The notes under the pieces: generated by a model | What the model saw: the letters and a program-made list of their open reading frames with translations, nothing else | Database searches by the model: none | Told to the model about the DNA's origin: nothing | NCBI RefSeq assembly: GCF_964355755.1 | Contig: NC_092673.1 | Coordinates: 17,667,648 to 17,731,647, forward strand | Reading direction: 5' to 3' | DNA from: Antedon mediterranea | Taxonomy: Eukaryota; Animalia; Echinodermata | Length of the DNA stretch: 64,000 bases | Made by a program: the position numbers and the translations under genes | In this document: positions 863 to 50,800 of the stretch, piece after piece | How positions within the stretch are numbered: position 1 is the stretch's first letter | How the letters are laid out: the number at the start of each line of letters is the position of its first letter

Positions 863-970
863 AATGATGACACTCTATTACATTCATATCTGAGTAGTGT
901 ATATCCACCTACCTTAGAAATAGTGACGTGTCTCATTCAGCATGGGACACAAGTAGCGTTGCAAAATAAG
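863..970 (+). CDS. Ankyrin cassette exon A1: NDDTLLHSYLSSVYPPTLEIVTCLIQHGTQVALQNK
   Basis: Acceptor ttcctttccAG, donor AAG/GTAAAT, 108 nt, phase 0-0; ankyrin-like T(P/L)LH...LEIV..LIQHG pattern. Confidence 0.8.
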
Positions 971-3900
971 GTAAATGTACAGGGATTTGCTAGTGTAATA
1001 GGCTAACATTATATAGATATGCTGAAGTAAACCATTCAATGAGAGAAAAAAGTAACCACATTAACAAAAATCAAATTTGATTAAAACAAACCAAATAAAA
1101 AAATAACTAAATAGTTATATATGATTTATGATAACTGATTTAAAGTGTACAAATCTTTAAGTTTCTTAATGAACAAAAAAATCTATTTTTGTTTATATAT
1201 TCAGTTATTAAATAACAATTATTGACAATGGTCTAATTAATTGTAAATATGAAATAAAATGGGACAACTACTAAACAACTAAAAATGTTTAGGTTAAAAA
1301 AATTAATAGAATCTGATTTTAATAAAAAAATAATTATTAATTAAAAACCTGCTCCCTCCCTTACCTTACAAAAAATGCTTCTGTCAGTCTATCCAGCTAA
1401 TTATAAACATGGCATTAAACTACATCTGGAGATCCGTTTCCAACCTAGGATCTTTTTGTGCAAACATTTTGCCACAAAATGAAGAGAAATGTAAACAATG
1501 TTTTGTTAGTTTTCAAAATCTAAATTGTGTGAGTAATGCAATTTAAAAAAGAAAGGCAATATGAAATTATTCTTTTCGAACTGAATGCTTTTAAGAAAAG
1601 TTCCGTCTCTTATCTTATGACTTTTTTTGAAAAATGAATTCTCGTTAAAATATAATATACTAGTAAGTGCTCACAGATGCTTTTTGAATACATAAACTTT
1701 GGTAAATAACTGAAAATTATACTGTACACAAGGCAAATAAATACAGATATGATGGAGATCTGATCCATGGTAATATATTATATTTTGTTTTCATTTATCA
1801 ATAATGATAATTAGGATTTTATCACATTATTTAGCAGTAATTGTTGTTGTTTGTATTAACAAAAAAACCCAATTTCACATATGTCTGTTGTCAGTTTATA
1901 AACTTCATGATTATGATTCCTTTTCAGGATGGTGACACCAGATCTGATCTATGTTAAGATATTCTATTTTGTTCTCATTTATCAATAGTTAACAATTAGG
2001 ATTATTTACCACATTATTTAGCAGCAAAAAACAATTTCACATAATGTTTGTTGTCATTATTTATAAACTCCATTATGATTCCTTTCCAGTATGGTGACAC
2101 TCCATTACATCCATATCTGAGGAGTGGATATACTGCACCTACCTTAGAAATAGTGACGTGTCTCATTCAGCATGGGGCACCAGTAGCATTGAAAAATAAG
2201 GTAAAGGGATTTGCTAGTGTAATAAGCTAACATTATATAGATCTGCTGAAGTAAACCATTTAATGAGAGAAAAAAGTAAGCACATTAACAAAAATCAAAT
2301 TTGATTAAAACAAACCAAATAAAAAAATAACTAAATAGTTATATATGATTTATGATAACTGATTTAAAGTGTACAGTTACCTATCATATAACATAAATCT
2401 TTAATTTTCTTAATGAACAAAAAAATCTATTTTTTTTATATATTCAGTCATTAATTAACAATTATTGACAATGGTCTAATTAATTGTAAATATGAAATAA
2501 AATGCGACAACTACTAAACAACTAAAAATGTTTATGTTAAAAAAATTAATAGAATCTGATTTTAATAAAAAAATAATTATTAATTAATAACCTACTCCCT
2601 CCCTTACCTTACAAAAAATGCTTCTATCAGTCTATCCAGCTAATTATAAACATGGCCTTAAACTACATCTGGAGATCCTTTTCCAACCTAGGATATTTTT
2701 ATGCAAACATTTTGCCACAAAAGGAAGAGAAATGTAAATAATATTTAGCCTTTAGTTAGTGGTTTCCAAAATTTAAAATGTTTGAGCAATGCAATTTAAA
2801 AAAGAAAGCTAGTATGAAATTCCTTTCAAACTGAAAATAATGATAATTAGGATTTTATCACATTATTTAGCAGTAATTGTTGTTGTTTGTATTAACAAAA
2901 AAAAACCCAATTTTCACATAATGTCTGTTGTCAGTATTTATAAACTTCATTATGATTCCTTTCCAGGATGGTGACACTCTATTACATTCATATCTGAGGA
3001 ATGATAGAATACCTACCTTAGAAATAGTGACTTGTCTCATTCAGCATGGGACACCATTAGCATTGCAAAATAAGGTAATGTACAGGGATTTGCTAGTGTA
3101 ATAAGCTAACATTATATAGATATGCTGTGGTAAACCATTCTATTTTGTTCTACTCATTTATTTATTAATAATGATAATTATGATTATTTACCACAATATT
3201 TAGCAGCAATTGTTGTTGTTTGTATTGAAAAAAAACAAACAATTTCACATAATGTCTGTTGTCAGTATTTATAAACTTTATTATGATTCCTTTCCAGTAT
3301 GGTAACACTCCATTACATTCATATCTGTGGAGTGTACATACACCTACCTTAGAAATAGTGACGTGTCTCATTCAGCATGGGGCACCAGTAGCATTGCAAA
3401 ATAAGGTATTGTACAGGGATTTGCTAGTGTAATAGGCTAACATTCTATAGATATGATGTGGTAAACCATTCTATTTTGTTCTACTCATTTATTAATAATG
3501 ATAATTATGATTATTTTACCACAATATTTAGCAGCAATTGTTTTTGTTTGTATTGACAAAAAAAACAAACAATTTCACATAATGTCTGTAGTCAGTATTT
3601 ATAAACTCCATTATGATTCCTTTCCAGAATGGTGACACTCTATTACATTACTGTCTGAGGAGAGGATATCCACCTACCTTAGAAATAGTGACGTGTCTCA
3701 TTCAGCATGGGACACCAGTAGCATTGCAAAATGAGGTAATGTACAGGGATTTGCTAGTGTAATAGGCTAACATTATATAGATCTGCTGAAGTAAACCATT
3801 CTATTTTGTTCTACTCATTTATTAATAATGATAATTATGATTATTTACCACAATATTTAGTAGCAATTGTTGTTGTTTGTATTGACAAAAAAAACAAACA

Positions 3901-6900
3901 ATTTCACATAATGTCTGTTGTCAGTATTTATAAACTCCATTATGATTCCTTTCCAGAATGGTGACACTCTATTACATTCATATCTGATGATTGGATACCC
4001 TACCTTAGAAATAGTGACGTGTCTCATTCAGCATGGGACACCATTAGCATTGCAAAATAAGGTAAATGTACAGGGATTTGCTAGTGTAATAGGCTAACAT
4101 TGTATAGATATGCTGTGGTAAACCATTCTATTTTGTTCTACTCATTTATTAATAATGATAATTATGATTATTTACCACAATATTTAGTAGCAATTGTTGT
4201 TGTTTGTATTGACAAAAAAAACAAACAATTTCACATAATGTCTGTTGTCAGTATTTATAAACTCCATTATGATTCCTTTCCAGAATGGTGACACTCTATT
4301 ACATTCATATCTGGGGACAGGATATACACCTACCTTAGAAATAGTGACGTGTCTCATTCAGCATGGGGTACCAGTAGCATTGCAAAATAAGGTATTGTAC
4401 AGGGATTTGCTAGTGTAATAGGCTAACATTCTATAGATCTGCTGAAGTAAACCATTTAATGAGAGAAAAAAGTAAGCACATTAACAAAAATCAAATTTTA
4501 TTAAAAGAAATCAAATTAAAATAATAACTAAACAGTTATATATGATTTATGATAACTGATTTAAAGTATACAGTTATTCATCAAATAACATATATCTTTT
4601 TTCTTAATGAACAAAAACAATCTACTTGTAATTTTTTATATTCAGGTGAATCACTATAATTTTGTTTAAATATTTTTACCATAAAATAAATATATATTGG
4701 TCATATCAGGGAGTTGTAAAATGACAACTCCCTGGTCATATGTAGCTGTAAAGATAACAACAATTGAAAATGGTCTAATTAATTATAAATATGAAATAAA
4801 ATGTATGTTGACAAATAATAGAATAGCAAACAAAAATGTTTGTGTTATTGTTAACAAAATTAATAGAATCTGATTTTAATAAAAAAGAATTATTAATTGT
4901 TAATAACTTGCTCCCTCCCTTACCTTCCAAAAAAATACTTCTGTCAGTATATCCAGCTAATTACAGTTTGAATATGGCCTTTTAAAGAGATCTTTTTCCA
5001 GCATTTTTTTTTTTTGCAAATATTTTGCCACAAATGGAAGAGAAATGTAAATAATGTTTAGTTTATAGTGGTTTCCAAAATCTAAAATTGTTCGAACAAT
5101 GCAATTAGACATTTTTTTATATTCAGGTGAATCAGTATAATTTTGTTTACATATTTTTGACCGTAAAACAAATATAAATTGGTCATATGTAGCTGTAAAG
5201 ATAACAATGATTGACAATGGTCTAATTAATTGTAAAGATGAAATAAAATGGGACAACTACATTGATTAATAATAAAATAACAAATAAAAATGCTTATGTC
5301 AAAAAAATTAATAGAATCTGATTTTAATAAAAAAATAATTATTAATTAATAACCTGCTCCCTCCCTTACCTTACAAAAAAATGCTTCTGTAATAGTAATA
5401 GGCTAACAATCTTTAGATCTGATCCATGGTAAGATATTCTATTTTGTTCTCATTTATCAATCATGTCAATTAGGATTATTGACCACATTATTTAGCAGTA
5501 ATTCTTGCTATGGTTTGGGTTGACAAAAAAAAACCCAATTTCACATAATGTCTGTTGTCAGTATTATACACCAACAACATTGCAAAATAAGGTAATGTAC
5601 AGGGATTTGCTAGTGTAATAAGCTAACATTATATAGATCTGCTGAAGTAGACCATTTATTGAGAGAAAAAAGTAAGCACATTAACAAAAATAAAATTTGA
5701 TTAAAACAAACCAAATAAAAAAATAACTAACTAGATTTAAACTCGTCACTACGGACGAGTTAGGTTATCCGCAGCGCAAAAGGCATGTGCACGTCATACG
5801 TTAGAATATTACGCGCAGAAAAACGTTTACGCCATTGAAAAAATGATAGTGCGCCCTCTATTTTGCGTCACGTCTGAGTATATACGGTATACACTATATA
5901 CTATATACGTATAACCATACAGTGCAGAATAGTGAAAAGAAGTGACCAAAGTTATTAACGCTTTTGAACATGATGACGTAATAACAATTTTAAAAATTGT
6001 AAATCATGCGAAAGATAATTGATTGACCTAAACAATATAAAAAATGGAGGGCAATGGAATACGGATAATTGGAGATGTGCTCTATTAAATGTGATGAGCT
6101 ATGACGAAAGAGACAAAAATCCTATTATTTATATTCGAGTGGCCATACGATGACGTCACAATGTCCGGTTAGTCATATTGATGCATGATTTGATATCTGC
6201 AACTCATCTACTACCAGAATATGTAATTTTAAAAAAGTTCACCACGTAGTTTAGAATTTATGACTGTTTAAAAAAAGGCATAATTTTGACAAATTTTTGA
6301 ACTTTTTCATCAAAAATGCGCGTAAATTGTTTAATTCTACGTGCTCGTATGACGTGATTTTAAGTCGAAATTGTTTGAAAGTTGGTAAATTTTCTAAAAA
6401 AGACAGGAAAAACAAAAATCAAGCAAAAAAATGATGTTTTTGCGCTACGTGCGCACGTGCGCGTAAAAAAATTGCGCACGCGTGGGAATTTTTGAAATGC
6501 TCAAAATGACATGAAACGCGTAGAAAGTTGATTAGATATTGATTTTTCGCATTTTGAAATTTTAAACGCGCGTAACTTTTTGTGAAACATGCCATTTTTA
6601 ATCCATAGAAAGTTTGCGCTTGATATGACTTAAAGTTTCACCAAGTTTCAATACAAAACGACTTTTAGTTTTTAATATATGATCAATCATTGAAATTCAT
6701 AAAATCGCGCGTAACTTACGCTGCGCGAATCAAAGTTCATAAAAAAAAGTTTCTTGCACATCTACAGCTACAGGGCTATCTTTTGACAAAGTTATACAAT
6801 CATATGTTGGCCAGAATTAGAGATACGCTGCGAACAAAATTCGTGGAAAGAAAGAAGAACATAGGAAAAAAATGGGTTATCCGCCAAGTGCGGATAACCA

Positions 6901-9900
6901 AATAGTTATATATGATTTATGATCTGATTTAAAGTGTACAGTTACCTATCATATGACATAAATCTTTAATTTCCTTAATGAACAAAAAAATCTATTTTTT
7001 TTATATATTCAGTTATTAATTAACAATTATTGACAATGGTCTAATTAATTGTAAATATGAAATAAAATGCGACAACTACTAAACAACTAAAAATGTTTAT
7101 TAAAAAAAATAATAGAATCTGATTTTAATAAAAAATAATTATTAATTAAAAACCTGCTCCCTCTCTTACCTTACACAAAATGCTTCTGTCAGTCTATCCA
7201 GCTAATTATGAACATGGCCATAAAGAAATCCTTTTCCAACCTAGGATCTTTTTGTGCAAACATTTGCCACAAAATGAAATGTAAACAATGTTTTGTTAGT
7301 TTTCAAAATCTAAATTGTTTGAGTAATGCAATTTAAAAAAGAAAGGTAATATGAAATTATTCTTTTCAAACTGAATGCTTTTAAGAAAAGTTCCGTCTCT
7401 TATCTTATGACTTTTTTGGAAAAATGATTTCTCGCTAAAATATAATATACTAGTAAGTGCTCACAGATGGTTCTTAAATACATGACCTTTGGTAAATGAC
7501 TGAAAATTGTTTAAATACAAAGCAAATAAAATACAGATATGTTGGAATTTATGTAGTCAAATATAATTGTCATCCTGAGAATTACCTTAATTTTGTTTAT
7601 TGCATGGTATTGTTCACCAAATTCCTGTCTTGGTACAATTGATGATGGGATGGTATCAGGCTTCATGATATGATATGATTTTCATCGAGGCAAATGGTTT
7701 AAACTAAATTTGTTATCGTTAATATCTAACTTAGCTTAATTGGTTATCCGCACTTGGCGGATAACCTCTTGTTATTGTCAGGATCTTTTTTTTTTTTTTT
7801 TTTTTTTTCTATGTTATTCTTCTTTCTTTTCCAGAATTTTGTTGGTCGCATATCTCAAATTATGGCCAGCATAAGATTGTATAACTTTGTCATAAGATTG
7901 ACTTGTAGCTGTAGATGTGCAAGAAACTTTTTTTTTTAAATTTTGAGTCGCGCAGCGTAAGTTACGCGCGATTTTGTGAATTTTGCGTATTTTACATAGA
8001 TTGAAAACCAAAAAGCAATTTTAATTGAAACTTGGCAAAAGTGTAATTTATATCATGCGCTAACCTTCTATGGATTTAAAATGGCACTTTTCCAAAAAGT
8101 TACGCGCGCACGCGCGTTTAAAATTTCAAAATGCGAAAATTCAATTTCTAATCAACTTTCTACGCGTTTCAGGTCATTTTGAGCATTTAAAAAATTCCAA
8201 CGCGTGCGCATTTTTTTTACGCGCGCGTGCGCACGCAGCGCAAAAACATCTTTTTTTTGCTTGATTTTTGTTTTTCCTGTCTTTTTTTAGAAAATTTACC
8301 AACTTTCAAACAATTTCGACTTAAAATCACGTCATACGAGCACGTAGAATTGAACAATTTGCGCGCGTTTTTGATGAAAATGTTCAAAAATTCATGAAAA
8401 TTATGCCTTTTTTAAAACAGTCATAGATTGTAAACTACGAGGTGAACTTTTTTTAAATTACACATTCTGGAAGTTGATGAGTTGTAGATATCGAATCATG
8501 CATCGATATGGCTAACAGGACATAGTGACGTCATCGTATGGCCACTCAAATATAAAATATAGGATTTTTGTCTCTTTCGTCATAGCTCATCACATTTAAT
8601 AGAGCGCATCTCCACTTATCCTAATTCCATTTCCCTCCATTTTTTTATATTGTCTATGCCAATCAATTATCTTTCGCATGATATACCGTTTTTAAAATTG
8701 TGATGACGTCATCATGTCCAAAAGCGTCAATAACTTGGGCCACTTATTTTCACATATTCTTCACTGTATGTAGTACGTATACAATATATAGTGTATACTG
8801 TGTATACTTAGACGTGACGTAAAATAGAGAGCGCACTAACATTTTTTCAATGGCGTAATGGTTTTCTCTGCGCAATATTCTAACGTATGACGTGCACGTG
8901 GCGTTTGCTCTGCGGATAACCTAACTCGTCCGTAGTGACGAGTTCAAATCTAGTTATGATATTGGTTTCATTGGGAGTTAAAAATCAGTACCGAAAGTAT
9001 GTACCAACTTTCTCTACCATTGAGTATAAATTCTAGAAGTTGCACTTAATTTACTGAAATTTCCCATTACCTAAATTTATATGTAAATTCATTAAACTGC
9101 TTATTGGTCTCATATTGTTAACATCTAAACATGTATTTGTACAATTTTATGAAATATGTATTTTGTTAATGTTCAAATTTTGTGATTGATATTGTACAGT
9201 AAGTAGATGTTAATGATTACTTACATTAAGTAATAGGCTAACAATCACTAGATCTGATCCATGGTAATATATTATATTTTGTTTTCATTTATCAATAATG
9301 ATAATTAGGATTTTATCACATTATTTAGCAGTAATTGTTGTTATTTATATTAACAAAAAACCCAATTTTACATAATGTCTGTTGTCAGTATTTATAAACT
9401 TCATTATGATTCCTTTCCAGGATGGTGACACTCTATTACATTCATATATGAGGAATGTATATAGAATATCTACCTTAGAAATAGTGACTTGTCTCATTCA
9501 GCATGGGACACCAGTAGCATTGCAAAATAAGGTAAATGTACAGGAATTTGCTAGTGCAATAAGCTAACATTATATAGATCTGCTGAAGTAAACCACTTAA
9601 TGAGAGAAAAAAGTAAGCACATTAACAAAAATCAAATTTGATTAAAACAAACCAAATAAAAAAATAACTAAATAGTTATATATGATTTATGATAACTGAT
9701 TTAAAGTGTACAGTTACCTATCATATAACATAAATCTTTAATTTTCTTAATGAACAAAAAAATCTATTTTTTTTTATATATTCAGTCATTAATTAACAAT
9801 TATTGACAATGGTCTAATTAATTGTAAATATGAAATAAAATGCGACAACTACTAAACAACTAAAAATGTTTATGTTAAAAAAATTAATAGAATCTGATTT

Positions 9901-12900
9901 TAATAAAAAAATAATTATTAATTAATAACCTACTCCCTCCCTTACCTTACAAAAAATGCTTCTATCAGTCTATCCAGCTAATTATAAACATGGCCTTAAA
10001 CTACATCTGGAGATCCTTTTCCAACCTAGGATATTTTTATGCAAACATTTTGCCACAAAAGGAAGAGAAATGTAAATAATATTTAGCCTTTAGTTAGTGG
10101 TTTCCAAAATTTAAAATGTTTGAGCAATGCAATTTAAAAAAGAAAGCTAGTATGAAATTCCTTTCAAACTGAAAATAATGATAATTAGGATTTTATCACA
10201 TTATTTAGCAGTAATTGTTGTTGTTTGTATTAACAAAAAAAAACCCAATTTTCACATAATGTCTGTTGTCAGTATTTATAAACTTCATTATGATTCCTTT
10301 CCAGGATGGTGACACTCTATTACATTCATATCTGAGGAATGATAGAATACCTACCTTAGAAATAGTGACTTGTCTCATTCAGCATGGGACACCATTAGCA
10401 TTGCAAAATAAGGTAATGTACAGGGATTTGCTAGTGTAATAAGCTAACATTATATAGATATGCTGTGGTAAACCATTCTATTTTGTTCTACTCATTTATT
10501 AATAATGATAATTATGATTATTTACCACAATATTTAGCAGCAATTGTTGTTGTTTGTATTGAAAAAAAACAAACAATTTCACATAATGTCTGTTGTCAGT
10601 ATTTATAAACTTTATTATGATTCCTTTCCAGTATGGTAACACTCCATTACATTCATATCTGTGGAGTGTACATACACCTACCTTAGAAATAGTGACGTGT
10701 CTCATTCAGCATGGGGCACCAGTAGCATTGCAAAATAAGGTATTGTACAGGGATTTGCTAATGTAATAGGCTAACATTCTATAGATATGATGTGGTAAAC
10801 CATTCTATTTTGTTCTACTCATTTATTAATAATGATAATTATGATTATTTTACCACAATATTTAGCAGCAATTGTTTTTGTTTGTATTGACAAAAAAAAC
10901 AAACAATTTCACATAATGTCTGTAGTCAGTATTTATAAACTCCATTATGATTCCTTTCCAGAATGGTGACACTCTATTACATTACTGTCTGAGGAGAGGA
11001 TATCCACCTACCTTAGAAATAGTGACGTGTCTCATTCAGCATGGGACACCAGTAGCATTGCAAAATGAGGTAATGTACAGGGATTTGCTAGTGTAATAGG
11101 CTAACATTATATAGATATGCTGTGGTAAACCATTCTATTTTGTTCTACTCATTTATTAATAATGATAATTATGATTATTTACCACAATATTTAGTAGCAA
11201 TTGTTGTTGTTTGTATTGACAAAAAAAACAAACAATTTCACATAATGTCTGTTGTCAGTATTTATAAACTCCATTATGATTCCTTTCCAGAATGGTGACA
11301 CTCTATTACATTCATATCTGGGGACAGGATATACACCTACCTTAGAAATAGTGACGTGTCTCATTCAGCATGGGGTACCAGTAGCATTGCAAAATAAGGT
11401 ATTGTACAGGGATTTGCTAGTGTAATAGGCTAACATTCTATAGATCTGCTGAAGTAAACCATTTAATGAGAGAAAAAAGTAAGCACATTAACAAAAATCA
11501 AATTTTATTAAAAGAAATCAAATTAAAATAATAACTAAACAGTTATATATGATTTATGATAACTGATTTAAAGTATACAGTTATTCATCAAATAACATAT
11601 ATCTTTTTTCTTAATGAACAAAAACAATCTACTTGTAATTTTTTATATTCAGGTGAATCACTATAATTTTGTTTAAATATTTTTACCATAAAATAAATAT
11701 ATATTGGTCATATCAGGGAGTTGTAAAATGACAAAAATCTAAAATTGTTCGAACAATGCAATTAGACATTTTTTTATATTCAGGTGAATCAGTATAATTT
11801 TGTTTACATATTTTTGACCGTAAAACAAATATAAATTGGTCATATGTAGCTGTAAAGATAACAATGATTGACAATGGTCTAATTAATTGTAAAGATGAAA
11901 TAAAATGGGACAACTACATTGATTAATAATAAAATAACAAATAAAAATGCTTATGTCAAAAAAATTAATAGAATCTGATTTTAATAAAAAAATAATTATT
12001 AATTAATAACCTGCTCCCTCCCTTACCTTACAAAAAAATGCTTCTGTAATAGTAATAGGCTAACAATCTTAGATCTGATCCATGGTAAGATATTCTATTT
12101 TGTTCTCATTTATCAATCATGTCAATTAGGATTATTGACCACATTATTTAGCAGTAATTCTTGCTATGGTTTGGGTTGACAAAAAAAAACCCAATTTCAC
12201 ATAATGTCTGTTGTCAGTATTATACACCAACAACATTGCAAAATAAGGTAATGTACAGGGATTTGCTAGTGTAATAAGCTAACATTATATAGATCTGCTG
12301 AAGTAGACCATTTATTGAGAGAAAAAAGTAAGCACATTAACAAAAATAAAATTTGATTAAAACAAACCAAATAAAAAAATAACTAACTAGATTTAAACTC
12401 GTCACTACGGACGAGTTAGGTTATCCGCAGCGCAAAAGGCATGTGCACGTCATACGTTAGAATATTACGCGCAGAAAAACGTTTACGCCATTGAAAAAAT
12501 GATAGTGCGCCCTCTATTTTGCGTCACGTCTGAGTATATACGGTATACACTATATACTATATACGTATAACCATACAGTGCAGAATAGTGAAAAGAAGTG
12601 ACCAAAGTTATTAACGCTTTTGAACATGATGACGTAATAACAATTTTAAAAATTGTAAATCATGCGAAAGATAATTGATTGACCTAAACAATATAAAAAA
12701 TGGAGGGCAATGGAATACGGATAATTGGAGATGCGCTCTATTAAATGTGATGAGCTATGACGAAAGAGACAAAAATCCTATTATTTATATTCGAGTGGCC
12801 ATACGATGACGTCACAATGTCCGGTTAGTCATATTGATGCATGATTTGATATCTGCAACTCATCTACTACCAGAATATGTAATTTTAAAAAAGTTCACCA

Positions 12901-15900
12901 CGTAGTTTAGAATTTATGACTGTTTAAAAAAAGGCATAATTTTGACAAATTTTTGAACTTTTTCATCAAAAATGCGTGTAAATTGTTTAATTCTACGTGC
13001 TCGTATGACGTGATTTTAAGTCGAAATTGTTTGAAAGTTGGTAAATTTTCTAAAAAAGACAGGAAAAACAAAAATCAAGCAAAAAAATGATGTTTTTGCG
13101 CTACGTGCGCACGTGCGCGTAAAAAAATTGCGCACGCGTGGGAATTTTTGAAATGCTCAAAATGACATGAAACGCGTAGAAAGTTGATTAGATATTGATT
13201 TTTCGCATTTTGAAATTTTAAACGCGCGTAACTTTTTGTGAAACATGCCATTTTTAATCCATAGAAAGTTTGCGCTTGATATGACTTAAAGTTTCACCAA
13301 GTTTCAATACAAAACGACTTTTAGTTTTTAATATATGATCAATCATTGAAATTCATAAAATCGCGCGTAACTTACGCTGCGCGAATCAAAGTTCATAAAA
13401 AAAAGTTTCTTGCACATCTACAGCTACAGGGCTATCTTTTGACAAAGTTATACAATCATATGTTGGCCAGAATTAGAGATACGCTGCGAACAAAATTCGT
13501 GGAAAGAAAGAAGAACATAGGAAAAAAATGGGTTATCCGCCAAGTGCGGATAACCAAATAGTTATATATGATTTATGATCTGATTTAAAGTGTACAGTTA
13601 CCTATCATATGACATAAATCTTTAATTTCCTTAATGAACAAAAAAATCTATTTTTTTTATATATTCAGTTATTAATTAACAATTATTGACAATGGTCTAA
13701 TTAATTGTAAATATGAAATAAAATGCGACAACTACTAAACAACTAAAAATGTTTATTAAAAAAAATAATAGAATCTGATTTTAATAAAAAATTATTATTA
13801 ATTAAAAACCTGCTCCCTCCCTTACCTTACAAAAAATGCTTCTGTCAGTCTATCCAGCTAATTATGAACATGGCCATAAAGAAATCCTTTTCCAACCTAG
13901 GATCTTTTTGTGCAAACATTTGCCACAAAATGAAATGTAAACAATGTTTTGTTAGTTTTCAAAATCTAAATTGTTTGAGTAATGCAATTTAAAAAAGAAA
14001 GGTAATATGAAATTATTCTTTTCAAACTGAATGCTTTTAAGAAAAGTTCCGTCTCTTATCTTATGACTTTTTTGGAAAAATGATTTCTCGCTAAAATATA
14101 ATATACTAGTAAGTGCTCACAGATGGTTCTTAAATACATGACCTTTGGTAAATGACTGAAAATTGTTTAAATACAAAGCAAATAAAATACAGATATGTTG
14201 GAATTTATGTAGTCAAATATAATTGTCATCCTGAGAATTACCTTAATTTTGTTTATTGCATGGTATTGTTCACCAAATTCCTGTCTTGGTACAATTGATG
14301 ATGGGATGGTATCAGGCTTCATGATATGATATGATTTTCATCGAGGCAAATGGTTTAAACTAAATTTGTTATCGTTAATATCTAACTTAGCTTAATTATG
14401 ATATTGGTTTCATTGGGAGTTAAAAATCAGTACCGAAAGTATGTACCAACTTTCTCTACCATTGAGTATAAATTCTAGAAGTTGCACTTAATTTACTAAA
14501 ATTTCCCATTACCTAAATTTATATGTAAATTCATTAAACAACTTATTGGTCTCATATTGTTAACATCTAAACATTTGTTTGTACAATTTTATGAAATATG
14601 TATTTTATTAATGTTGAAATTTTGTGATTGATATTTATAAATTTACATAGGGATTTGCTGGTGTAATAGGCCAACATTAATTGTAATTGTTGTTTGTTTT
14701 GACAAAAAAACAAACAATTTCACATAATGTCTGTTGTCAGTATTTATAAACATCATGATTATGATTCCTTTCCAGGATGGTAATACTCCATTACATGTGT
14801 ATTTTAGGAGGAGTAGATTAATACCTACCTTAAAAATAGTGACTTTTCTGATTCAGCATGGGGGCACCATGTTGTTCTAGGAATTTCCATGCTAGTTGTG
14901 TCTACATTAATCCTCATAGGTTTAGAACATTCTTCAAAAATAGGTCTTCTGACTGGTGCTGCCATCTTTGTGCACTCCCAAAACTGAATGATTCATTCTT
15001 TAGTATCTCTTCGGATACAAATGAAAACGATGCATTGCTCAACTTGGATCCACTAGTATGTGGAATCAACAACGATTCCAGCAGTAATTCGGACTCTATC
15101 ATTGATCCTGCAGAGGTACTGAAAGGAAAAGGCATGCATTTTCTTCATGTTAATGCGCGGTCTCTACTACCCAAAATATCTGAACTTAGAACACTTGTTG
15201 GTGGAACCAAAGTGGCAGTCATTGCTGTCACTGAAACGCACCTTGACAGTTCCATTACCGATAATGAAATACACATCCCAGACTTCCAACTATATCGTCG
15301 AGACCGTGCCAGAGCAGGTGGTGGAGTATGTCTGTACTTCAAGTCTACCCTGGCCATTACTATGCGGTCTGACTGTAACAATGCCAACATTGAGGCACTA
15401 TGGTCTGAAGTACATCTCCCAAGAACAAGGCCTATTATCGTTGGAGTCTGTTATCGGCCACCAAAACAACGTCATGGTGAATTTATTGATGGAATGGATA
15501 ACATTATGGAACAACTACCGAGAAACTCAGAGATCTACATTTTCGGAGATACAAACATGTCTAGCTTGAAAAAGGATAGCAACTATATCAAATTCCAACA
15601 GACTCTGCACATCAGTGGAATGTCTCAAATTATGAGCGAACCCACACGCATCTGTGATTCCTGCGAATCTTGTCTTGATCATATTATCACCAACTCTTCG
15701 GACAAACTAAACAAATTCGGAGTGCTATCTATAGGCTTCAGTGATCACTTTCCTATATAGGCCACTCGTCACACACAGCGACAAAAACACCACACGCATA
15801 AAAAGGTGAAGATTAGATCAACTAAAAACTACAATAGAGAAAAGTTTATACGTCTTCTTCAAGAGACTGATTGGGACAATGTTCACAAGGCAGAAACCGT

Positions 15901-18900
15901 TGATTTTTCGTGGCAAGCCTTTTGTGTAAATTTCACAAATGTTTTGGATAAAGTTGCTCCTGTAAAAGAAGTCCGAATTAGACACTCTTCTCAGCCGTGG
16001 ATGACACCTGACATACTCAAAATTATTAAGGCCAGGGATATTTATCTTAATAAATTCAAAAGAACTCGTAATTTATTATATCGTACTGAATACTGTAAAC
16101 TTAGAAATCAGGTACAAAGAAATATAAAAGAAGCAAAGCAGACTCATTTTATTGACAAGATCAATACAAATCGACATAACCCTAAAAAGTTATGGAAGGT
16201 TATAAAAGATCTTGGGTATCAAAATAAACAAAATGAAACTGCTTCGATTACTCTTAAAATAAATGATAAACTATGTAGTGAGCCAAACATTATTGCCAGT
16301 CACTTTAACTCGTTTTTTACAAACGTAGCATCAGATCTGGTAAGAAAGCTCCCGCAAAGGTCATACCAATTTGATGTAAATTCTGAGAATTTTAAAAAAT
16401 ACTATGACGGTACTGACAAATTTTCCTTGCAACCTGTAAACAACGATATAGTTAAAAAGGAGATCTTGGGTCTCAGTATAAATAAAAGTACAGGTCTAGA
16501 TTGCATACCCACACGTTTTTTAAGGGATGCGTCCGAAATTATTGCAACTCCCATAACACGGATTATCAATTTCTCATTTGAAACGGAATGTTTTCCAAAT
16601 GAGATGAAATTGGCTCGTGTTCGACCAATTTACAAGAAAAAAAATAATCTTGAAACTGCTAACTATAGGCCTGTCAGTATACTGTCGGTGGTGTCAAAAA
16701 TTGTAGAAAAGATTGTTCACTCACAATTAAATGAGTTTTTGGAAAGGAACAAGCTTTTATATCGTTTTCAGTCTGGTTTCAGACAGTCCTTTTCAACAGA
16801 TCACTGTTTAATTCACTTGACAGACTTCATTAAAACTCAAACAGCGAAAGGGAAATTTACTAGTATCTTACTTATTGACATCCAAAAAGCTTTTGACTGC
16901 GTTAGTCATGACTTACTTTGTAAGAAACTCAGAAAAATTGGAATCGAATCTGTCAGCTGGTTTAAATCATATCTGGAATGTAGACATCAAACAGTCAATA
17001 TATTGGTGGGGCTGTTTCAGAGCCTTCAGAAATTGTATGTGGAGTGCCACAAGGGAGCATCCTGGGACCACTCCTGTTCCTCATCTACGTCAATGATATG
17101 CCTATGTCTGTCTCATCATTGTTAATGCAATATGCTGACGATAGTGCAATTGTCAATGCTCATCATGATCCTGATATTATCAGTAAAAATCTTGCTAGGG
17201 ATCTGTCTAATTGTAATAAATAGTTAATTGACAATAATTTATCACTTCACATGGGAAAAACTGAACTAATGTTGTTTGGTCCCAGGATGTCTCTCAAGAA
17301 CTACACAAATTTTAGCGTCCTTTACAATGGCTATACAATTTCTTTGAATAGCTCTATAAAATACCTTGGTATCGAACTAAGCAATAGGCTTAATAGTGAA
17401 TTAATTGTCTCAACAATTATTAAGAAAGTTAATGGTCATATTAAATTTGCGTATAGGAATTGTCGTAACTTTGATCGCTGTATTCGTAAACTCATAATGG
17501 AAGCCCTGGCTCTAAGCCATATAAATTATGCTATATCATCCTGGTACTGGGGTACAACCGCGGATTCCCGTACTAAACTTCAAAGAACACAAAATAAAGT
17601 AATTATTGTATTGTCTCATATATGGTACATCTGCAGCATTGCAAAATAGGGTAATGTAGGCTTACAAAGAATTGTCAGGACAATTTCACATTTTATTGTT
17701 ATCATGAGTATTTATAAACTTGAACTTCAGTATCAATTAGCCTCCATATTAATCAATAGTATTACTACCTCAACGAGCAGCATTATTTAATCAGACTTAC
17801 CGATATAGAATTCTCAAGTAAAAAATGTTTGATTGTTTTCACCTTTTTCTCTTTTTACACATAGCACATTCTAACAAGTTTGTTTTGATTTTGATATTCA
17901 TTTATAAGTCAACTATAATTGTAATGTGTTGTTGTTTTAATATTTCATTTGTATCTTGATAGTATCCAAATATTATTTGCTTTGAAAGTTTATTGTAAAA
18001 CTATTTGTTGTTTTATATTATGGCTCAAACATTTTAACACATTTACCTACTGTTCCAAAGTAAACTTTTATTCAATTTATCTCTCTCTCTCTTCCATCTT
18101 TCAATGTTGAAGGCGGTAGACTATAAACGGCAGCGCTTAAGTTTTGGTTTGGATACAGGAGTTATAGGTGGCGCACTGTACAAGTTGATGTCATTTATTG
18201 GCAAATAGTAATTTCTATTCACGTCCTAATTTACAACCAATGTTAAAAAATAGTAAAGCTACGTGTTATCACATGATGCTCTTTCATCCAATCTCTAGAT
18301 GGTAAATGTTTGAGCCATGACTGTATGTATGTGATGCGTATTAAAGTGTGTTATATTGTATATCAATAATTTCTCAAAAACTACTAATAGTAACTAAACC
18401 CATTTTTTAATAGGATGGAAATACACCTGTCTCTGTTTTAGAAAGTAACAGGTGGATAGGGCACAAGAGAAAAACTGAACTTTTAAACTTCTTTAAAAGT
18501 AAGTGAAGTTTTAATTATTAAAATTTTGGAATCAACTAGTTTTCATTACAAACGATAAAGATTTGATTTTTTGTCCCAAATGAAGAAGAATGTCCAGATA
18601 AAGAAAATTAACATTTATGATATCATTCACAGGTTCAGATGGCAATAGATTAAATAATCCACTGGGATTGTAGTAAACCATGGAGTAAAGAATAAGAGGA
18701 GGCACAACTCGGCCTAGCTATCCAGTTAATCCAATTAGTATCACGCTGTGCGGTAGTGCTTAAGCATAGGGTAATAAACTTCCCATAACGATCCTTTGAA
18801 GAACATCCTGTTTACCCGTGCAGCTCGCTGCAGAGTCGGCTCTGATTACGTAACACCCTAATTAAGGAAGAAGCCAGGCATGACATCGGTGACAAAAAAA

Positions 18901-21900
18901 GTAAACAGAGGCTGCGCAGTAGTTTCTAATACATCATAGTGAAGCATGACCTTTGTGCAGTTGTTCATTGTTCTTTGAGCTTTTTTCTCGAAAAAACCGT
19001 TTAAAAATCGAGTAAATTTTCACGGAGATATCGCAGTTTTTATACCAGCTAACAAATTAATCATATTTTTTGTCAAGCCATAGACGTATCATTTGGTAAA
19101 TCGAAATTTTACCGTTTAAGCAACTTTTTAATTTACGAACCCTAGTGCATTTTGTAGCATATTAAAGACTCCAACTTATTTTAAAATCACATTTTAGTGC
19201 GCGCAAATGCGCGCATGAAAAAAATTATATAATTTGTTCTCATGAATATTCAAAAATATACGTATAGTAGAATTCCAACGACACAATTTCTTATTTTTAT
19301 TACTGTATATGACATTTAATTTATGTTTCAGTCTATATTATGACTGTTTAGCAAAACTAACATTCTTCTATTTTAGTCTGATATTGTATAATTAAATTAT
19401 TTATGATATTAATATCATAAAATATATGATTTTTACGATCACTTAGAGTTCAGTGAACTTGTAGGACTTAAATTATATATCGTTTAACGATTTGTGGCTA
19501 CACATAGGCCTAGTAGTTCGTAATATATTATTATTTAATAAATAGCCTAAATAAGGATAATATTTAATCCCATAATGATGGACATATTTAGTGCATACCG
19601 TAACCGGTAGGCCTAATAGGTTCAGGCATAGGCGCGCCTATAGTAACAATAAACAATATCAATAATAATAATAGGTTTTTTTTATGTAGGTCTATATTAA
19701 TATATTAATAATTGTAATAACGTTAGAAAACAAATAGTAGTAATATTTTATTAAAGAAGAAATTAATCAATTAGTTTTAGTTTTCGGTTGGTCGTTATTA
19801 TAATATTATATAATATGGTATAAAATGGTACGGTACTACGAGAATATTCGTTTAGTATCAACCCGTAACAACAACTACAAATGATATGTGTTGGTTAAAA
19901 ATTCAATTACAAATATAGTCTATGCTCTTTTGTAATTATAAGCCATTGTATAAAAGGATTATGTACAGTTCGGTACATAGCGGTTAATCGTAAAATTAAA
20001 AAATCGGACATACGAACAATAGATCGCCAACATTATTCGTACCCTTTTGCTGTATTGCGTACGTCGATCATTACTGATGCGGCTGTAAACTTCGCCTGGA
20101 AAGTAACTAGTACAGTACACATTCTGGTCCCTGGATGGAACATGATATCACACGTAAACCGCAATGGAGCAGGTCCAATGTTAAACAATTCGTACAAAGG
20201 GGAACCGCCAGACAAGTGCGTACCTAATCATTGTTTATTAGATCGCTGGCAATAATGCATGCAAAGTGCAATAGCTCTCCGCTCCACCAAGCAACGTACA
20301 GTACTAAAAAAATGGAACGTCGCGGTTTTTCTAGGCGCTGAAGTTATACGAAGTGAACGCGAATGATTTTTACTGTATATTATATTCCCCGACGAAAAGT
20401 ACTCGCGTTTCCCAGACGGGGAAGAGGGGAGGGGGGGGGGAGACGACGAGGGGATACAGCCCCCGTAACCCCCCGCTGGCACCACCACTGGTCCTTATTA
20501 AACCCATTTATTCATCATGATTCATGATAAGTTGTCTGGAGAAATTACCAACATTTAGTACACAGTAAACCATATAAATATAATTCCTTTGTTGGTGCCG
20601 TATAAAACTCGTATTATTAATTTATTAATAAAAGATATCCAGTAGAATATATATATAGCGCTGCTTTTTAATAAAAATTAATAAACAAGGTCGGAATACA
20701 AGTTCAGTAGGTCTACAAACAGTATATAGTACACCTTTCACGCTTGAACGCACATCGCCTAGCAAGAGTATTGTGACGTCCTAATACGCATGTGTACTAA
20801 CACCAAAATTGACCGCGGGCAGTAAACATTGTACTCTTTGCTAATTGGGTTACGTAACGGCAGTGTTTAGCACCTCCTTAAATACTCATTACAAGCATAG
20901 CCTTAAGCAAGCGGTAAACACGATGAACTGACTGAACTATTCAAGTTGTGTCTCCTCTTATTCTTTAACATGGAAGTTGTGATATGTTGCAAGATGTGAA
21001 AACCTTATTTTTTATGATTTGAAAATTGCAAATAAATTAGAAAAATTATTTTGCCATTACGATAAAAATACACAAAAATGCAAACTTTAAAATTCCTTTG
21101 AATTAACAATATTGAATAAATTTGGCCACACTTTTTTTTTTATGGAACGTCATTTTTCACATCAAATCAATCTCTTTATTCATCAATACATCAAAACAAT
21201 TATACATAAACAAAATAAAGATGTGAAGATGAAAGGGACCTCCAAGAAACCCAAAGGGACTTGTGATAAAAGGCCCACTATAAGCTAGTTACAAATAAAA
21301 CATACAAAAAATAAATTAATAAAATTAATAAAAATCCTGTATAGACAAATACACGGGATGCGCATTGTTAAGGAATATTTGAACTTTATTAATTGCATAT
21401 AAATGTAAATGTAGAATATTTTTTTTTTAAATGTAATCTATTTTATATATAATGGTATTATTTAAAATATGTATTCGCAATCGGGGCAAACAATTTACGA
21501 TAGGAGGAGATAAATATTGAATTTAACAAGGCCATATAGATGGCTGCAGTCGCTTGCTCAAGTTAGTGTTTACCAACCGACCGACATAGTGAGTTGTAGA
21601 GTGGCGTTGCACATGACTAAAAATCTAATTTTCTTGTTAATCCCATTTTTTGTTTCCACAATGAATGAATTTTCTTCACATACTTTAAGCCAGCTTAAGA
21701 ATTCTATTTCTCTGTATGTAAAATTAAGCATCATACATAATGTATTTTACCTTGGCTCCTACAATTGTATTATCTTGCAACTTCTTATGCAAATAGGCAC
21801 AAAATAATAAGTAATATTTGAGCATAAACGCTTAAATAATTGTAAAAGTTGTTATAAATTAATGAGCTTTCAGTAGAGTACTTACACACAGAATAATAGA

Positions 21901-39799: not shown

Positions 39800-40197
39800 A
39801 GTATCCCCTGAATAGGGGTGTCCTAAAGAAGGGATTTACTCCAGTAGTAAAGAGGAGGGGTGTGTCCCCTGAATAGGGATGTGTCCCCTGAATAGGGTTG
39901 TCTTAAAGAAGGGGTTTGCTCCAGTAGTAAAGAGGAGGGGTGTGTCCCCTGAATAAGGGTGTCTTAAAAAAGGGATTTACTCCAGTAGTAAAGAGGAGGG
40001 GTGTGTCCCCTGAATCTGGATGTGTCCCCTGAATAGGGGTGTCCTAAAGAAGGGGTTTACTCCAGTAGTAAAGAGGAGGGGTGTGTCCCTTGAATAGGGA
40101 TGTGTCCCCTGAATAGGGGTGTCCTAAAGAAGGGGTTTACTCCAGTAGTACAGAGGAGGGGTGTGTTCCCTGAACAGGGGTATGTCCCCTGAATAGG
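39800..40197. repeat. Minisatellite with 80- and 61-bp units (includes a 19-bp subrepeat) in the putative 3' UTR
   Basis: ccagtagta recurs at 39841, 39921, 39982, 40062 and 40142. Confidence 0.9.
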
Positions 40198-45020: not shown

Positions 45021-45264
45021 TTGTGCTTTGTTTTATGACAATTACACGAATAGCAATACTTTGTTTGGAAATGTTGGTTTATGGCAACCAGTTGAATCCA
45101 TTGAAGTGTTTCTCAACTATTTTATTTTTACACTTACAGCAAAAATTGCAATTCAAATTACAGATTTTAATTAGAAATTCAGAGGCTTAAAAGCTATCTT
45201 GGTGAACACTACAAGGCTGATCACTATCTTTTGCTCAAATTCAGAGGCTTAAAAGCTAATCTTG

Positions 45265-47889: not shown

Positions 47890-50800
47890 ATGGAAAGGTA
47901 CGTTTTTAACAATTATTTCAAACAAAAATAACCAGCTCCAATATGTGTTGATATTATTGAAATATGTAACTATTAAAAACAGATTAAAATTTTTGAATAG
48001 TTATATTGAATAAATACACATACTGTACTTTATAAGGCCTAAAAAAAAAAAATTGTTTGTTTGCTGTCAAGTTTTTTTTTTTGGTAAGGGTGGAAAAAAG
48101 TTTTTTTTTTTTTTTTTTTTTTTTTTAATGTTAATTTCTCTTTTAATTGCTCGCGAATTTGAGAGTAACAAAACACACTGAATAAAACAACGAGCTCAAA
48201 CATCTATTCATAATTTGTTTCACACTTTAATTCTGTTTTGGTCGCGTTAGGCCCCGTGTCTAAACTAGCCTAGGCTAGAGGCCTACTACACAGTAGGTCG
48301 TTGTTAGCAGGCCTAATTAAATATTTTAATTTTTAGAAGTTAGTGTACCGCTAATGCTATTGTATATTTCGGTGTATAAGTCGCACCTGTGTATAATAGG
48401 ACGCACCCGACCCCTAACTGAGAGTAAAATATCGGTATTTTGTATATCGTCGATGTATAATACGGCCGCGCCCAGCCTCAACAAGAAGGGAAGTCCCCCA
48501 TTCCGTCAGTTCTTTCTAACTTGTTATGAATGAGTTTCGCACCCGCAACATCGAGTGCATGACCGCACGTACGTGTGTGTGGGCTAGCCTCGCTCGATCC
48601 TTTTATCGAGAGGCGCACGTTTTCACGGACAATCGTTTTCGATTAGTATCTATGTATCCTAGAAGTGTGTACGCTAGGTCTATGCTATAATCAACTAGAG
48701 AATATACTAGTCGAATACTGTGTACACAATGTGGTTGCCAAAGGGCTCGCTCGCGCTGGGGGTACGACGGTCCTGCGTATAACTATAATACTATTCCAAT
48801 CGTAAACGTTTTCAAATGAAATTTTATCGGAGCGCCTAAAACAGCTCCATAATGAACAAATCTTTTCATCATATTTAGTACAAAATCACGCTAAAATGCC
48901 TTGAAAACTAGCAGGTTGCTGTTACGCTAGTACACTGTAGCTAGGCTAGGCCTACTCTTTAGACTTTAGTAATACTAATAGGCCTAGGCCTTACCTTAAA
49001 AAGCCCAGGCCTAGCCAACGAGGTGGCGATATTTGTGTGTTGAGGCATTTATGTTCGGTGTATAAGACGCACCCTTAATTTAGAGGTTAAATTTGCGTGT
49101 CAAAAGTGCGATAATACACCGAAATATACGCTACGTTATTATTTTTATTGTTTCATCCTCGCACACTCGATTTTTACACCTTTTCGGCCAAAAAACTCAT
49201 AAAAAAAACTTTTTTTTAAAAAAGCGCCCTCAACGTAAAAAAAAAACTTTTTCTTATTTCCGCCCCAAATTTTTGGCGAAATTAGGGGCGGCGGATGACA
49301 GCAAACAAACTATTTTTTTTTTTTTGGCCTAATCATAATTTATAGGTCAAATAAAAAGAAAACACTTTGATTAAGATATTCTTATGAGAAAAATACTTCA
49401 AACTTTCTTAAAAGATTATGAAATCATAAATATTACAATTAACAGGCCCATCCTCATTAAATATAATAATAATATATTTACCTCAATCATCATTTTCATA
49501 AAAGAACATAATAATTCATTATTTTTACATTTTAACAGGAACAAATTACAAGATGCTTTCTACAGGAATGATTTGCAAAAAATTAAACAAATTTGTAAGA
49601 CGCAACCAGATCTTCTGAAATCTATCGATGAGGTATAAAAACAGATATATTTTTATAATATCAAAGAAGAATTCTTTTCATTAAAGTTTAACATTTAATA
49701 GTTTAAAGCTTTTTTACATAATGAATTACAATTCTTTTGCATGTACTGATTAACCACATTAGGCTAAAAATAATAATATAAATACACACTGATGATGGAG
49801 GTATAACCTGCATGCACTGATTAACCACATTAGGCTAAAAATAATAATATAAATACACACTGATGATGGAGGTATAACCTGCATGCACTGATTAACAACA
49901 TTAGGCTAAAAATAATAATATAAATACACACTGATGATGGAGGTATAACCTGCATGTACTGATTAACCACATTAGGCTAAAAATAATAATATAATACACA
50001 CTGATGATGGAGGTATAACCTGCATGTACTGATTAACCACATTAGGCTAAAAATAATAATATAATACACACTGATGATGGAGGTATAACCTGCATGCACT
50101 GATTAACAACATTAGGCTAAAAATAATAATATAAATACACACTGATGATGGAGGTATAACCTGCATGCACTGATTAACAACATTAGGCTAAAAATAATAA
50201 TATAATACACACTGATGATGGAGGTATAACCTGCATGTACTGATTAACCACATTAGGCTAAAAATAATAATATAAATACACACTGATGATGGAGGTATAA
50301 CCTGCATGCACTGATTAACAACATTAGGCTAAAAATAATAATATAAATACACACTGATGACGGAGGTATAACCTGCATGTACTGATTAACCACATTAGGC
50401 TAAAAATAATAATATAAATACACACTGATGATGGGTGTATAACCTGCATGTACTGATTAACAACATTAGGCTAAAAATAATAATACTGTATAAATACACA
50501 CTGATGACGGAGGTATAATCTGCATGTACTGATTAACCACATTAGGCTAAAAATAATAATATAAATACACACTGATGATGGAGGTATAACCTGCATGTAC
50601 TGATTAACCACATTAGGCTAAAAATAATAATATAAATACACACTGATGATGGAGGTATAACCTGCATGTACTGATTAACAACATTAGGCTAAAAATAATA
50701 ATATAAATACACACTGATGATGGAGGTATAACCTGCATGTACTGATCAACAACATTAGGCTAAAAATAACAATATAAATACACACTGATGATGGAGGTAT

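What the first reader, a model, noticed from the sequence alone, without database searches (positions are those of the whole stretch)
2220..14634. Recent tandem duplication shows the array expanding and one cassette being cleanly lost or gained
Seen: copy 1 carries A3-A4-A5-A6-A7; copy 2 carries A3-A4-A5-A7. The offset drops from 7334 to 7007, exactly one 327-bp exon+intron unit (MIGY). The copies also differ by a ~350-bp deletion and a 1.2-kb element. This is direct evidence of unit-wise unequal recombination at two scales.
Basis: seen in the sequence. Interest (0 to 1): 0.7.

Follow-up and report, generated by a model that had tools for sequence, protein, structure and literature searches.

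The report
Shuffled ankyrin cassettes in feather-star ROCO
In a feather star, a likely real and recent duplication inside a row of one-exon-per-repeat ankyrin cassettes differs between its two copies by exactly one whole cassette, likely dropped by recombination, so the predicted binding surface of a candidate immune-sensor gene would be rebuilt piece by piece, as is known for brown-algal and fungal sensors.

Summary
Observation confirmed. Two copies (core 2260-9055 and 9597-14497; 6 substitutions in 4,900 aligned bases) differ by a 327-bp exon+intron unit (A6, 'MIGY'), a 350-bp deletion and a 1,214-bp HINE-like transposon. The units are phase-0 exons, each one ankyrin repeat, in front of an open ROC-COR-DED reading frame; the DED exon is 100% identical to an Antedon mediterranea protein. 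Copy 2's intron switches from intron 5 to intron 6 inside a 7-base window, and MIGY has a near-twin in the next gene, so loss is more likely than gain (about 70%). Cassettes are recombinant mosaics across two genes (p=0.001), with diversity peaking at helix 1 and the loop; positive selection was not shown. Public contigs fit three near-identical copies better than two alleles, but no raw reads were available, so an assembly artefact keeps about 15%. It works like exon shuffling in brown-algal ROCO genes, here with ankyrin repeats in an animal. New variant of a known kind; immune role inferred.

The parts
2260..9055 (+). copy 1 of the young duplicated core (A3-A7, spacers, broken cassette, two HINE-like elements)
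9597..14497 (+). copy 2 of the young core (A3-A4-A5-A7; lacks A6 unit, the 350-bp segment and the second element)
9056..9596 (+). non-duplicated junction between the copies, with its own intact cassette A8
3776..4102 (+). 327-bp exon+intron unit present only in copy 1; switch point within 3776-3782/4103-4109
4727..5076 (+). 350-bp spacer segment deleted in copy 2 (junction at about 11734, 1-base overlap); related spacer present in gene 2
7740..8953 (+). HINE/Helentron-like non-autonomous element inserted in copy 1 only; site empty in copy 2 (14395/14396) and in gene 2 (about 59135)
5730..6902 (-). older copy of the same element family, present in both copies (copy 2: about 12386-13558)
863..970 (+). 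ankyrin cassette exon A1 (108 nt, phase 0-0)
2090..2200 (+). ankyrin cassette exon A2 (111 nt)
2967..3074 (+). cassette exon A3 (copy 2: 10305-10412)
3298..3405 (+). cassette exon A4 (copy 2: 10632-10739); Pfam Ank above cut-off
3628..3735 (+). cassette exon A5 (copy 2: 10962-11069); Pfam Ank above cut-off
3957..4061 (+). cassette exon A6 (MIGY loop, 105 nt), copy 1 only; 3 differences from gene-2 cassette B5
4284..4391 (+). cassette exon A7 (copy 2: 11291-11398)
9421..9531 (+). cassette exon A8 (111 nt)
14776..14869 (+). broken cassette A9, cut by a LINE (about 14870-17610); a more degraded cassette end follows at 17611-17658
5394..5734 (+). relic cassette lacking acceptor and most of the exon (also 12051-12390 and, in gene 2, about 59363-59630); a further stub at 1928-1938
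18414..18498 (+). predicted C-capping ankyrin exon, phase 0 start
   Evidence: like the C-caps of P0015 and P0023
24765..34828 (+). linker, ROC and COR exons (14 predicted AG/GT exons, open frame)
38224..38763 (+). death-effector-domain-like exon; stop in the next exon (38914-38971)
47890..49632 (+). gene 2: start-codon exon (47890) and N-cap exon (49539-49632), ending in phase 0
   Evidence: like the N-caps of P0017 and P0021
57193..63964 (+). gene 2 cassette array B1-B5 (57193, 59834, 63203, 63536, 63860)

Best explanation
Two near-identical copies of part of an array of single-ankyrin-repeat exons lie in front of a feather-star ROC-COR-DED reading frame and differ by one whole exon-plus-intron unit, likely lost from copy 2 by unequal recombination after a likely real duplication, in an array that likely builds the variable binding surface of a predicted immune or cell-death sensor. 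How it works: every cassette is a 105-111-nt phase 0-0 exon flanked on both sides by a related 45-60-bp motif about 330 bp apart (shown), and the introns are as homogeneous as the exon framework (shown). Any misaligned crossover or conversion therefore adds, removes or fuses repeats in frame (inferred). This acts on the 330-bp unit, on an older unit of about 1.55 kb, on multi-kb blocks and between neighbouring genes (mosaic pattern shown, mechanism inferred). Cassettes are likely spliced in a chain between N-cap and C-cap exons (weak contig hint plus family gene models), giving up to 12 internal repeats on this haplotype. Variation concentrates at helix 1 and the following loop (shown); ligand binding, ROC switching and DED signalling are inferred by analogy. 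Odds: real duplication 0.8, loss rather than gain 0.7, chain splicing 0.7, immune-type sensor 0.5.
For: Alignment and switch point. Exon anatomy and Pfam Ank (2 of 5 cassettes above cut-off, 3 of 5 at E about 0.002-0.003). Open downstream frame over 20 exons; 100% match to P0001. Family with the same repeats in the same species and ROC-COR relatives in a second crinoid (15 of 27 hits Anneissia japonica, 3 with ankyrin domains). Mosaicism: 38.5% of pairs among 34 informative sites incompatible, neighbour test p=0.001; A6 closest to A7 upstream (0 differences) but to gene-2 B5 in the loop. Diversity 0.268 in the loop vs 0.066 in the 3' exon and 0.04-0.08 in introns. All 13 distinct intact cassettes keep frame, length classes differing only by 3. 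Model of family member P0014 is an ankyrin stack (pLDDT 86.6). Both copies carry private substitutions. In run X2, contigs break on both sides of the copy-2 junction at 11734; copy-1-type continuation depth 28.4, copy-2 junction about 10.8 by my subtraction. Run X5 has a cassette-end to cassette-start joint and no such fusion exists in the window.
Against: No raw or long reads; no listed contig spans the duplication. The tool states contig depth is no copy number, and the copy-2 depth is my subtraction; X4 shows no copy-2 junction contig; the third copy could be a paralogue. The X5 joint has only 23 bases on its short side (below the tool's 31-base bridging rule), depth 6, cannot be assigned to this gene, and X5's RNA status is a guess. 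Positive selection not shown: pN/pS 1.63 overall, 1.48 in the framework, 1.10 at codons 11-14, which also fits neutral change. No NCBI model returned joins this window's cassettes to ROC; P0001 starts inside COR. The first exons of gene 1 lie outside the window. Four kinds of broken cassette lie in the array. The switch point lies outside the 196-bp identical A6/A7 tract where a crossover would be expected most often. No functional data.
Confidence: 0.6

Rival explanations
1. Assembly artefact: two allelic haplotypes placed in tandem; the differences are then allelic variation in cassette number.
For: No spanning reads seen. One solution of the X2 depths gives copy 1 and copy 2 one dose each, with a third near-identical copy that might be a paralogue. 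X4 has no copy-2 junction contig.
Against: No N gap. The join is 540 bp of unique sequence with its own intact cassette, flanked by the end of one copy and the start of the other; two alleles would need A8 on opposite sides of the block. Copy-1-type to copy-2-type depth in X2 is about 28:11; treated as counts, 1:1 gives p=0.009 and 2:1 gives p=0.61 (rough, contig depth).
Confidence: 0.15
2. Neutral churn: the array is a decaying, recombination-prone repeat tract, partly or wholly disconnected from the ROC-COR-DED gene, and cassette number has no function.
For: pN/pS not distinguishable from 1 in the framework. Relic cassettes, a LINE and two transposons in the array. 5.0-kb and 7.0-kb introns. 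The NCBI model for this gene has no ankyrin part.
Against: 13 of 13 distinct intact cassettes are stop-free with AG/GT ends and loop indels only in threes. The frame from C-cap to DED is open. Diversity peaks in one exon segment, not in introns. Family models join such repeats to ROC (P0013, P0015, P0016, P0023).
Confidence: 0.2
3. Dscam-like mutually exclusive splicing: one cassette is chosen per transcript, so gain or loss changes the isoform menu, not the repeat number.
For: Near-identical phase-0 exons in an array between N-cap and C-cap, each with full splice sites. Skipping any of them keeps the frame.
Against: Introns of 219-223 nt are long enough for chain splicing. Cassette-to-cassette joint and loose end in X5 (weak). 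Family models hold 2-8 chained repeats (computed models). No conserved intron structure found (covariation term -0.06; only the 3' part of the introns tested).
Confidence: 0.1
4. A6 was gained by copy 1 (conversion or crossover from a haplotype or paralogue carrying MIGY) instead of lost from copy 2.
For: A6 is a mosaic: identical to A7 over 196 bp upstream and into the exon, but B5-like in the loop. Copy-1 intron 5 is itself a hybrid of terminal-type and tandem-type introns.
Against: Loss is one crossover that reproduces copy 2's intron exactly; gain needs a pre-built mosaic insert. MIGY exists in gene 2, so it is not a fresh duplicate of a neighbour.
Confidence: 0.3
5. Somatic rearrangement: copy 2 or the A6 loss arose in a cell lineage of the sequenced animal, as in an adaptive-like system.
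For: Copy-2 junction depth is about 0.4 of the copy-1 type in X2 and absent from X4's contigs.
Against: Both copies hold private substitutions and separate large changes, which takes many generations. A germline three-copy solution fits the depths, and an unrelated unique junction in X2 has depth 9. No recombinase or signal sequence identified.
Confidence: 0.04

Closest known systems
Brown-algal ROCO genes with shuffled LRR exons (Ectocarpus, Saccharina; PMC3341825, PMC11378527)
   Same: ROC-COR core behind a repeat sensor; one exon per repeat; relic exons in the array; clustered paralogues; proposed immune role.
   Different: Ankyrin repeats of 35-37 aa in phase-0 exons of 105-111 nt here, against 72-nt LRR exons (phase 2 in PMC11378527). 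No reverse-strand cassettes here. C-terminal DED-like domain here. Animal host. Diversifying selection and splice variants were reported there and are not shown here.
Fungal NLRs with high internal conservation (Podospora het-d/het-e WD40 repeats; PMC12222747)
   Same: Very similar repeats kept alike by concerted evolution; unit gain, loss and shuffling; a few hypervariable sites; occasional near-identical repeats in different genes.
   Different: Switch is ROC-COR, not an NLR nucleotide-binding domain; repeats are ankyrin and separated by homogenised introns; ligand unknown here.
DAPK1-type ANK-ROC-COR-death-domain proteins
   Same: Ankyrin repeats, ROC-COR and a death-fold domain in this order (architecture recalled).
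   Different: No kinase domain in the family members seen; DED-like instead of death domain; many paralogues with unstable repeat number.
DARPins (designed ankyrin repeat proteins)
   Same: N-cap, interchangeable internal repeats, C-cap; closest folds in the PDB (TM about 0.78); variable codons 1, 3, 11, 12 match the randomised positions (positions recalled).
   Different: Natural; longer variable inter-helix loop; binding untested.
Arthropod Dscam exon arrays
   Same: Tandem arrays of duplicated exons.
   Different: Mutual exclusion not supported here; intracellular protein predicted.

Membership tests
ROCO proteins | ROC GTPase followed by COR | tested here: met
   Window exons: COR-A E=1.9e-7, Roc pieces weak (E=0.07, 0.022); close paralogues P0003-P0006 pass the Pfam cut-offs for Roc and COR-A; P-loop, DxxG and G4-like motifs in the open frame
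ROCO proteins | GTP binding/hydrolysis and dimer switching | not testable with these tools
   needs biochemistry
Brown-algal exon-shuffling ROCO type | one symmetric exon per repeat | tested here: met
   17 intact cassette exons, all phase 0-0, 105/108/111 nt
Brown-algal exon-shuffling ROCO type | repeat is an LRR | tested here: not met
   Pfam Ank; ankyrin fold of family member P0014
Brown-algal exon-shuffling ROCO type | inactivated exons in the array | tested here: met
   relics at 1928, 5394-5734 (and its copies), 14776, 17611
Brown-algal exon-shuffling ROCO type | exons on the non-coding strand | tested here: not met
   all 23 BLAST hits of a cassette in the window are on +
Brown-algal exon-shuffling ROCO type | diversifying selection on the binding face | tested here: inconclusive
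   diversity peak in loop but pN/pS 1.1-1.5 there and 1.48 in framework
Brown-algal exon-shuffling ROCO type | splice variants with different repeat sets | not testable with these tools
   only contigs offered
Fungal HIC NLR sensors | high repeat identity with recombination and unit-number change | tested here: met
   67-83% amino-acid identity to A4; mosaicism p=0.001; 327-bp unit difference
Fungal HIC NLR sensors | NACHT or NB-ARC domain | tested here: not met
   ROC-COR instead
DAPK1 | N-terminal kinase domain | tested here: not met
   gene 2 starts at the N-cap; no kinase family listed for P0013, P0016, P0020, P0023; gene 1's own 5' end is outside the window
Dscam-type arrays | mutually exclusive use of cassettes | tested here: inconclusive
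   weak cassette-to-cassette joint in X5 points against it
Dscam-type arrays | conserved intronic pairing elements | tested here: inconclusive
   no covarying structure in 14 intron 3' parts; long-range docking pairs not tested
HINE / non-autonomous Helentron (the 1.2-kb element) | palindromic subterminal repeats, 3' stem-loop, TT target, empty paralogous site | tested here: met
   ends and empty sites, against the features in PMC4067079 passages
HINE / non-autonomous Helentron (the 1.2-kb element) | autonomous Rep/Helicase partner with the same ends | not testable with these tools
   no whole genome held

The most novel reading that the evidence does not exclude
Feather stars run a natural DARPin library: a crinoid-expanded family of ANK-ROC-COR-DED receptors whose ankyrin repeats are exchangeable exon cassettes, reshuffled within and between genes fast enough that individuals and haplotypes differ in receptor specificity, possibly multiplied by exon skipping. 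This would be an animal, ankyrin-based convergence on the brown-algal ROCO repertoire, with a small chance (about 4%) of somatic rearrangement.
Probability: 0.35. Interest if true: 0.8.

Novelty: new variant of a known kind. Interest (0 to 1): 0.5.

Why it matters
The duplication and the lost cassette are, by themselves, ordinary concerted evolution. Their value is as a dated snapshot: three large changes against six substitutions in 4.9 kb show how fast this array is rebuilt. It points to an apparently undescribed candidate immune-receptor family in crinoids, the echinoderm class with least-known immunity (my knowledge), and gives a PCR- and long-read-testable case of a modular ankyrin binding surface evolving by exon exchange in an animal. 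It also shows that automatic annotation misses these cassette-to-ROC links.

Tried and rejected
Whole genome not held, so cluster size and other haplotypes could not be mapped. No RNA holder listed on record; this is no evidence on expression. (9200-26700, 90% likeness, runs X1, X2, X5, X6) was crowded by transposon contigs and showed 15 of 206 joints; no exon-exon joint was among them. Stretches without contig cover in X5 were not used. X5/X2 depth ratio is higher in 8 exon bins than in 21 other bins (median 0.20 vs 0.033, p=0.03; the first, transposon-end bin of the 30 was dropped), but the tool says contig depth cannot rank parts of a gene, so it is not counted. A conserved intron hairpin seen by eye was rejected. 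Positive selection was tested and not shown (gap columns of the loop were dropped, only 13 distinct cassettes). A recombination hot spot in the flanking motif was considered: the A6 switch, the hybrid intron 5 and several spacer jumps lie in or next to it, but events are few and not independent, so it is not claimed. 17611-17658 as the remainder of A9 was rejected (it overlaps A9's retained part and is more degraded). No earlier findings of this scan matched. Not found in print in the held library by searches (listings only; most subscription papers are not covered). No complex prediction was sent: no partner is known.
Full report
1. Observation. The offset is 7337-7338, then 7334, then 7007 after a 327-bp gap (3776-4102), 6657 after a 350-bp gap (4727-5076) and 5442 after a 1,214-bp gap (7740-8953). 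The young core is 2260-9055 against 9597-14497: 6 substitutions and 3 small indels in 4,900 aligned bases. About 540 bp that are not duplicated (9056-9596) separate the copies and hold another intact cassette, A8. The window has no N.

2. What the cassettes are. Each unit holds an AG/GT exon of 105, 108 or 111 nt in phase 0-0. There are 17 intact copies, 13 distinct: 12 copies in gene 1 and 5 in gene 2. Pfam calls all 5 tested cassettes Ank, 2 above the cut-off. Downstream, 20 predicted exons give an open frame from a C-cap (18414) through ROC and COR to a DED-like exon (38224-38763), with the stop in the next exon. Pfam support is firm for ROC-COR in close paralogues and weak for DED (E about 0.002, below cut-off). 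The DED exon is 100% identical to Antedon mediterranea protein P0001; all 12 hits are from that species and share one longest-contig length, from which I infer one chromosome. A second gene starts at 47890 with an N-cap exon ending in phase 0, followed by cassettes B1-B5. Family models in the same species have N-cap, 2 to 8 repeats, C-cap, ROC-COR and often DED (my regex counted 1 to 7 and missed some). ROC-COR relatives are also many in Anneissia japonica (15 of 27 hits). A model of family member P0014 is a confident ankyrin stack whose nearest solved folds are mostly DARPins.

3. The three differences. (a) A6 unit. Copy 2's intron carries the intron-5 base at 3775 and the intron-6 bases from 4110, so the switch lies in 7 bases. 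This is a homologous, frame-safe event. A6 differs from gene-2 cassette B5 at only 3 of 105 bases, so MIGY is older than this duplication or was exchanged between genes. One crossover explains loss; gain needs a ready-made mosaic. I put loss at 0.7. Against: the switch lies just outside a 196-bp identical tract, and A6 is itself a mosaic. (b) 350 bp. One base of overlap at the junction and related sequence in gene 2: a non-homologous deletion in copy 2. (c) 1,214 bp. Palindromic subterminal repeats, a 3' stem-loop, TT at the site, and empty sites in copy 2 and gene 2 match HINE features (PMC4067079, passages): an insertion in copy 1.

4. Scales of recombination. The region is built from an older unit of about 1.55 kb (spacer, cassette, spacer); a related 45-60-bp motif lies on both sides of each exon, about 330 bp apart, and defines the tandem unit. 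Among 13 distinct units, 38.5% of pairs of 34 informative sites are incompatible and neighbouring sites are less so than shuffled order (0.215 vs 0.385, p=0.001). Nearest neighbours cross the two genes (A6-B5, A4-B2). The kilobase duplication is not one crossover between today's flanks, since A8 is neither A2 nor A9; a duplication of spacer-block-A8 followed by loss of the second A8, or a long conversion, would fit (inferred).

5. Real or artefact. Only contigs were offered (13 runs, none on record as RNA). In one search (8880-12390, 98% likeness; X2, X4, X5), X2 contigs end and begin exactly at 11734, the copy-2 junction. The copy-1-type continuation has depth 28.4; subtracting listed contigs from the bin mean leaves about 10.8 for the copy-2 junction. 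The shared left flank is 39.6 and the shared right flank 25.9; three copies of about 13 each fit all four numbers, two alleles do not fit as well. An unrelated unique junction has depth 9. Against: the tool says depth is no copy number; X4 has no copy-2 contig; the third copy may be a paralogue; whether sample S1 is the window's source is not established. The unique gap-free junction with its own cassette is the stronger argument. Real duplication: about 0.8. Private substitutions in both copies argue for germline age, not a somatic event.

6. Splicing. X5 shows one joint from a cassette's last base to a cassette's first codon (9531 to 10633 with one other base, depth 6, short side 23) and a loose end of exon-end sequence before A7's start; X2 and X4 show neither, and no such fusion exists in the window. 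This is below the tool's bridging rule and cannot be assigned to this gene, so it is a weak hint of chain splicing at family level. Skipping is neither shown nor excluded.

7. Variation. Diversity is 0.268 at exon bases 25-48, 0.126 at 1-24, 0.066 at 49-108 and 0.04-0.08 in flanking introns. In the P0014 model this segment is the end of helix 1 and the inter-helix loop. pN/pS is 1.63 overall, 1.48 in the framework and 1.10 at codons 11-14: positive selection is not shown, and neither is purifying selection on amino acids. What is shown is retention of frame and splice sites in 13 of 13 distinct intact cassettes, beside four kinds of relic.

8. Comparison. Brown-algal ROCO genes encode each LRR in one exon, shuffle them, keep relic exons and are proposed immune receptors (PMC3341825, passages; PMC11378527, part 1 of 6 and passages; the latter notes that somatic recombination has not been reported there). 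Fungal HNWD NLRs gain and lose near-identical repeats by unequal crossing-over (PMC12222747, passages). The locus works like these but is a member of neither: the repeat is ankyrin and the switch is ROC-COR. It is a ROCO gene, not DAPK1. DAPK1 architecture, Dscam mechanism and DARPin randomised positions are recalled, not from a call. Searches listed no paper on this crinoid family (listings only; library incomplete). No supplements were read.

9. Verdict. Observation confirmed; interpretation partly supported. The event is ordinary concerted evolution, caught young; the host system, an ankyrin-cassette ROCO family in crinoids, is a new variant of a known kind with an inferred immune role. Interest 0.5; 0.8 if a functional, polymorphic receptor repertoire is shown (probability about 0.35).

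Noticed in passing
window 14870-17610: LINE-like element with endonuclease and reverse-transcriptase frames broken by stops cuts cassette A9. Contigs of X1, X2 and X5 differ from the window at about 15 shared sites in it, so other copies or alleles are the majority.
   Followed up: partly
window 60024-63046: Gypsy-like LTR retrotransposon pol fragment (RT, RNase H, integrase-like frames by eye) inside gene 2's cassette array; the array resumes just after the flank motif.
   Followed up: no
window 49738-51437 and 52527-53515: Two blocks of a 71-bp tandem repeat (about 95% alike) in the intron after gene 2's N-cap exon.
   Followed up: no
window 5394-5734, 12051-12390, about 59363-59630: The same relic cassette deletion is shared by gene 1 and gene 2, so the arrays share history or exchange long tracts.
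   Followed up: partly
window 1928-1938: Cassette stub that keeps its splice acceptor but has no donor; could act as a poison acceptor.
   Followed up: no
window 18414-32740: The frame from the C-cap through ROC is open, yet the matching NCBI model P0001 starts inside COR; the annotation looks split.
   Followed up: partly
window 25262-26077, 43694-45022, 53511-55786: A second dispersed repeat family in three places, both orientations; very high contig depth.
   Followed up: no
window 35350-35945: Two small charged exons (36 and 42 nt) between COR and DED lie in a local duplication; paralogues differ in the number of such phase-1 exons.
   Followed up: no
proteins P0013, P0014, P0016: Other family models also hold identical or near-identical neighbouring repeats, a sign of recent unit duplications elsewhere.
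   Followed up: partly
protein P0023: Model with two ankyrin repeats and two different ROC-COR modules in a row; either a true tandem ROCO or a merged annotation.
   Followed up: no
proteins P0133, P0139, P0140: Anneissia japonica relatives have 2-3 dissimilar ankyrin repeats; the last, with a long inter-helix loop, resembles the Antedon cassette by eye, suggesting the amplified unit's origin.
   Followed up: no
window 39801-40197: Short G-rich minisatellite downstream of gene 1.
   Followed up: no
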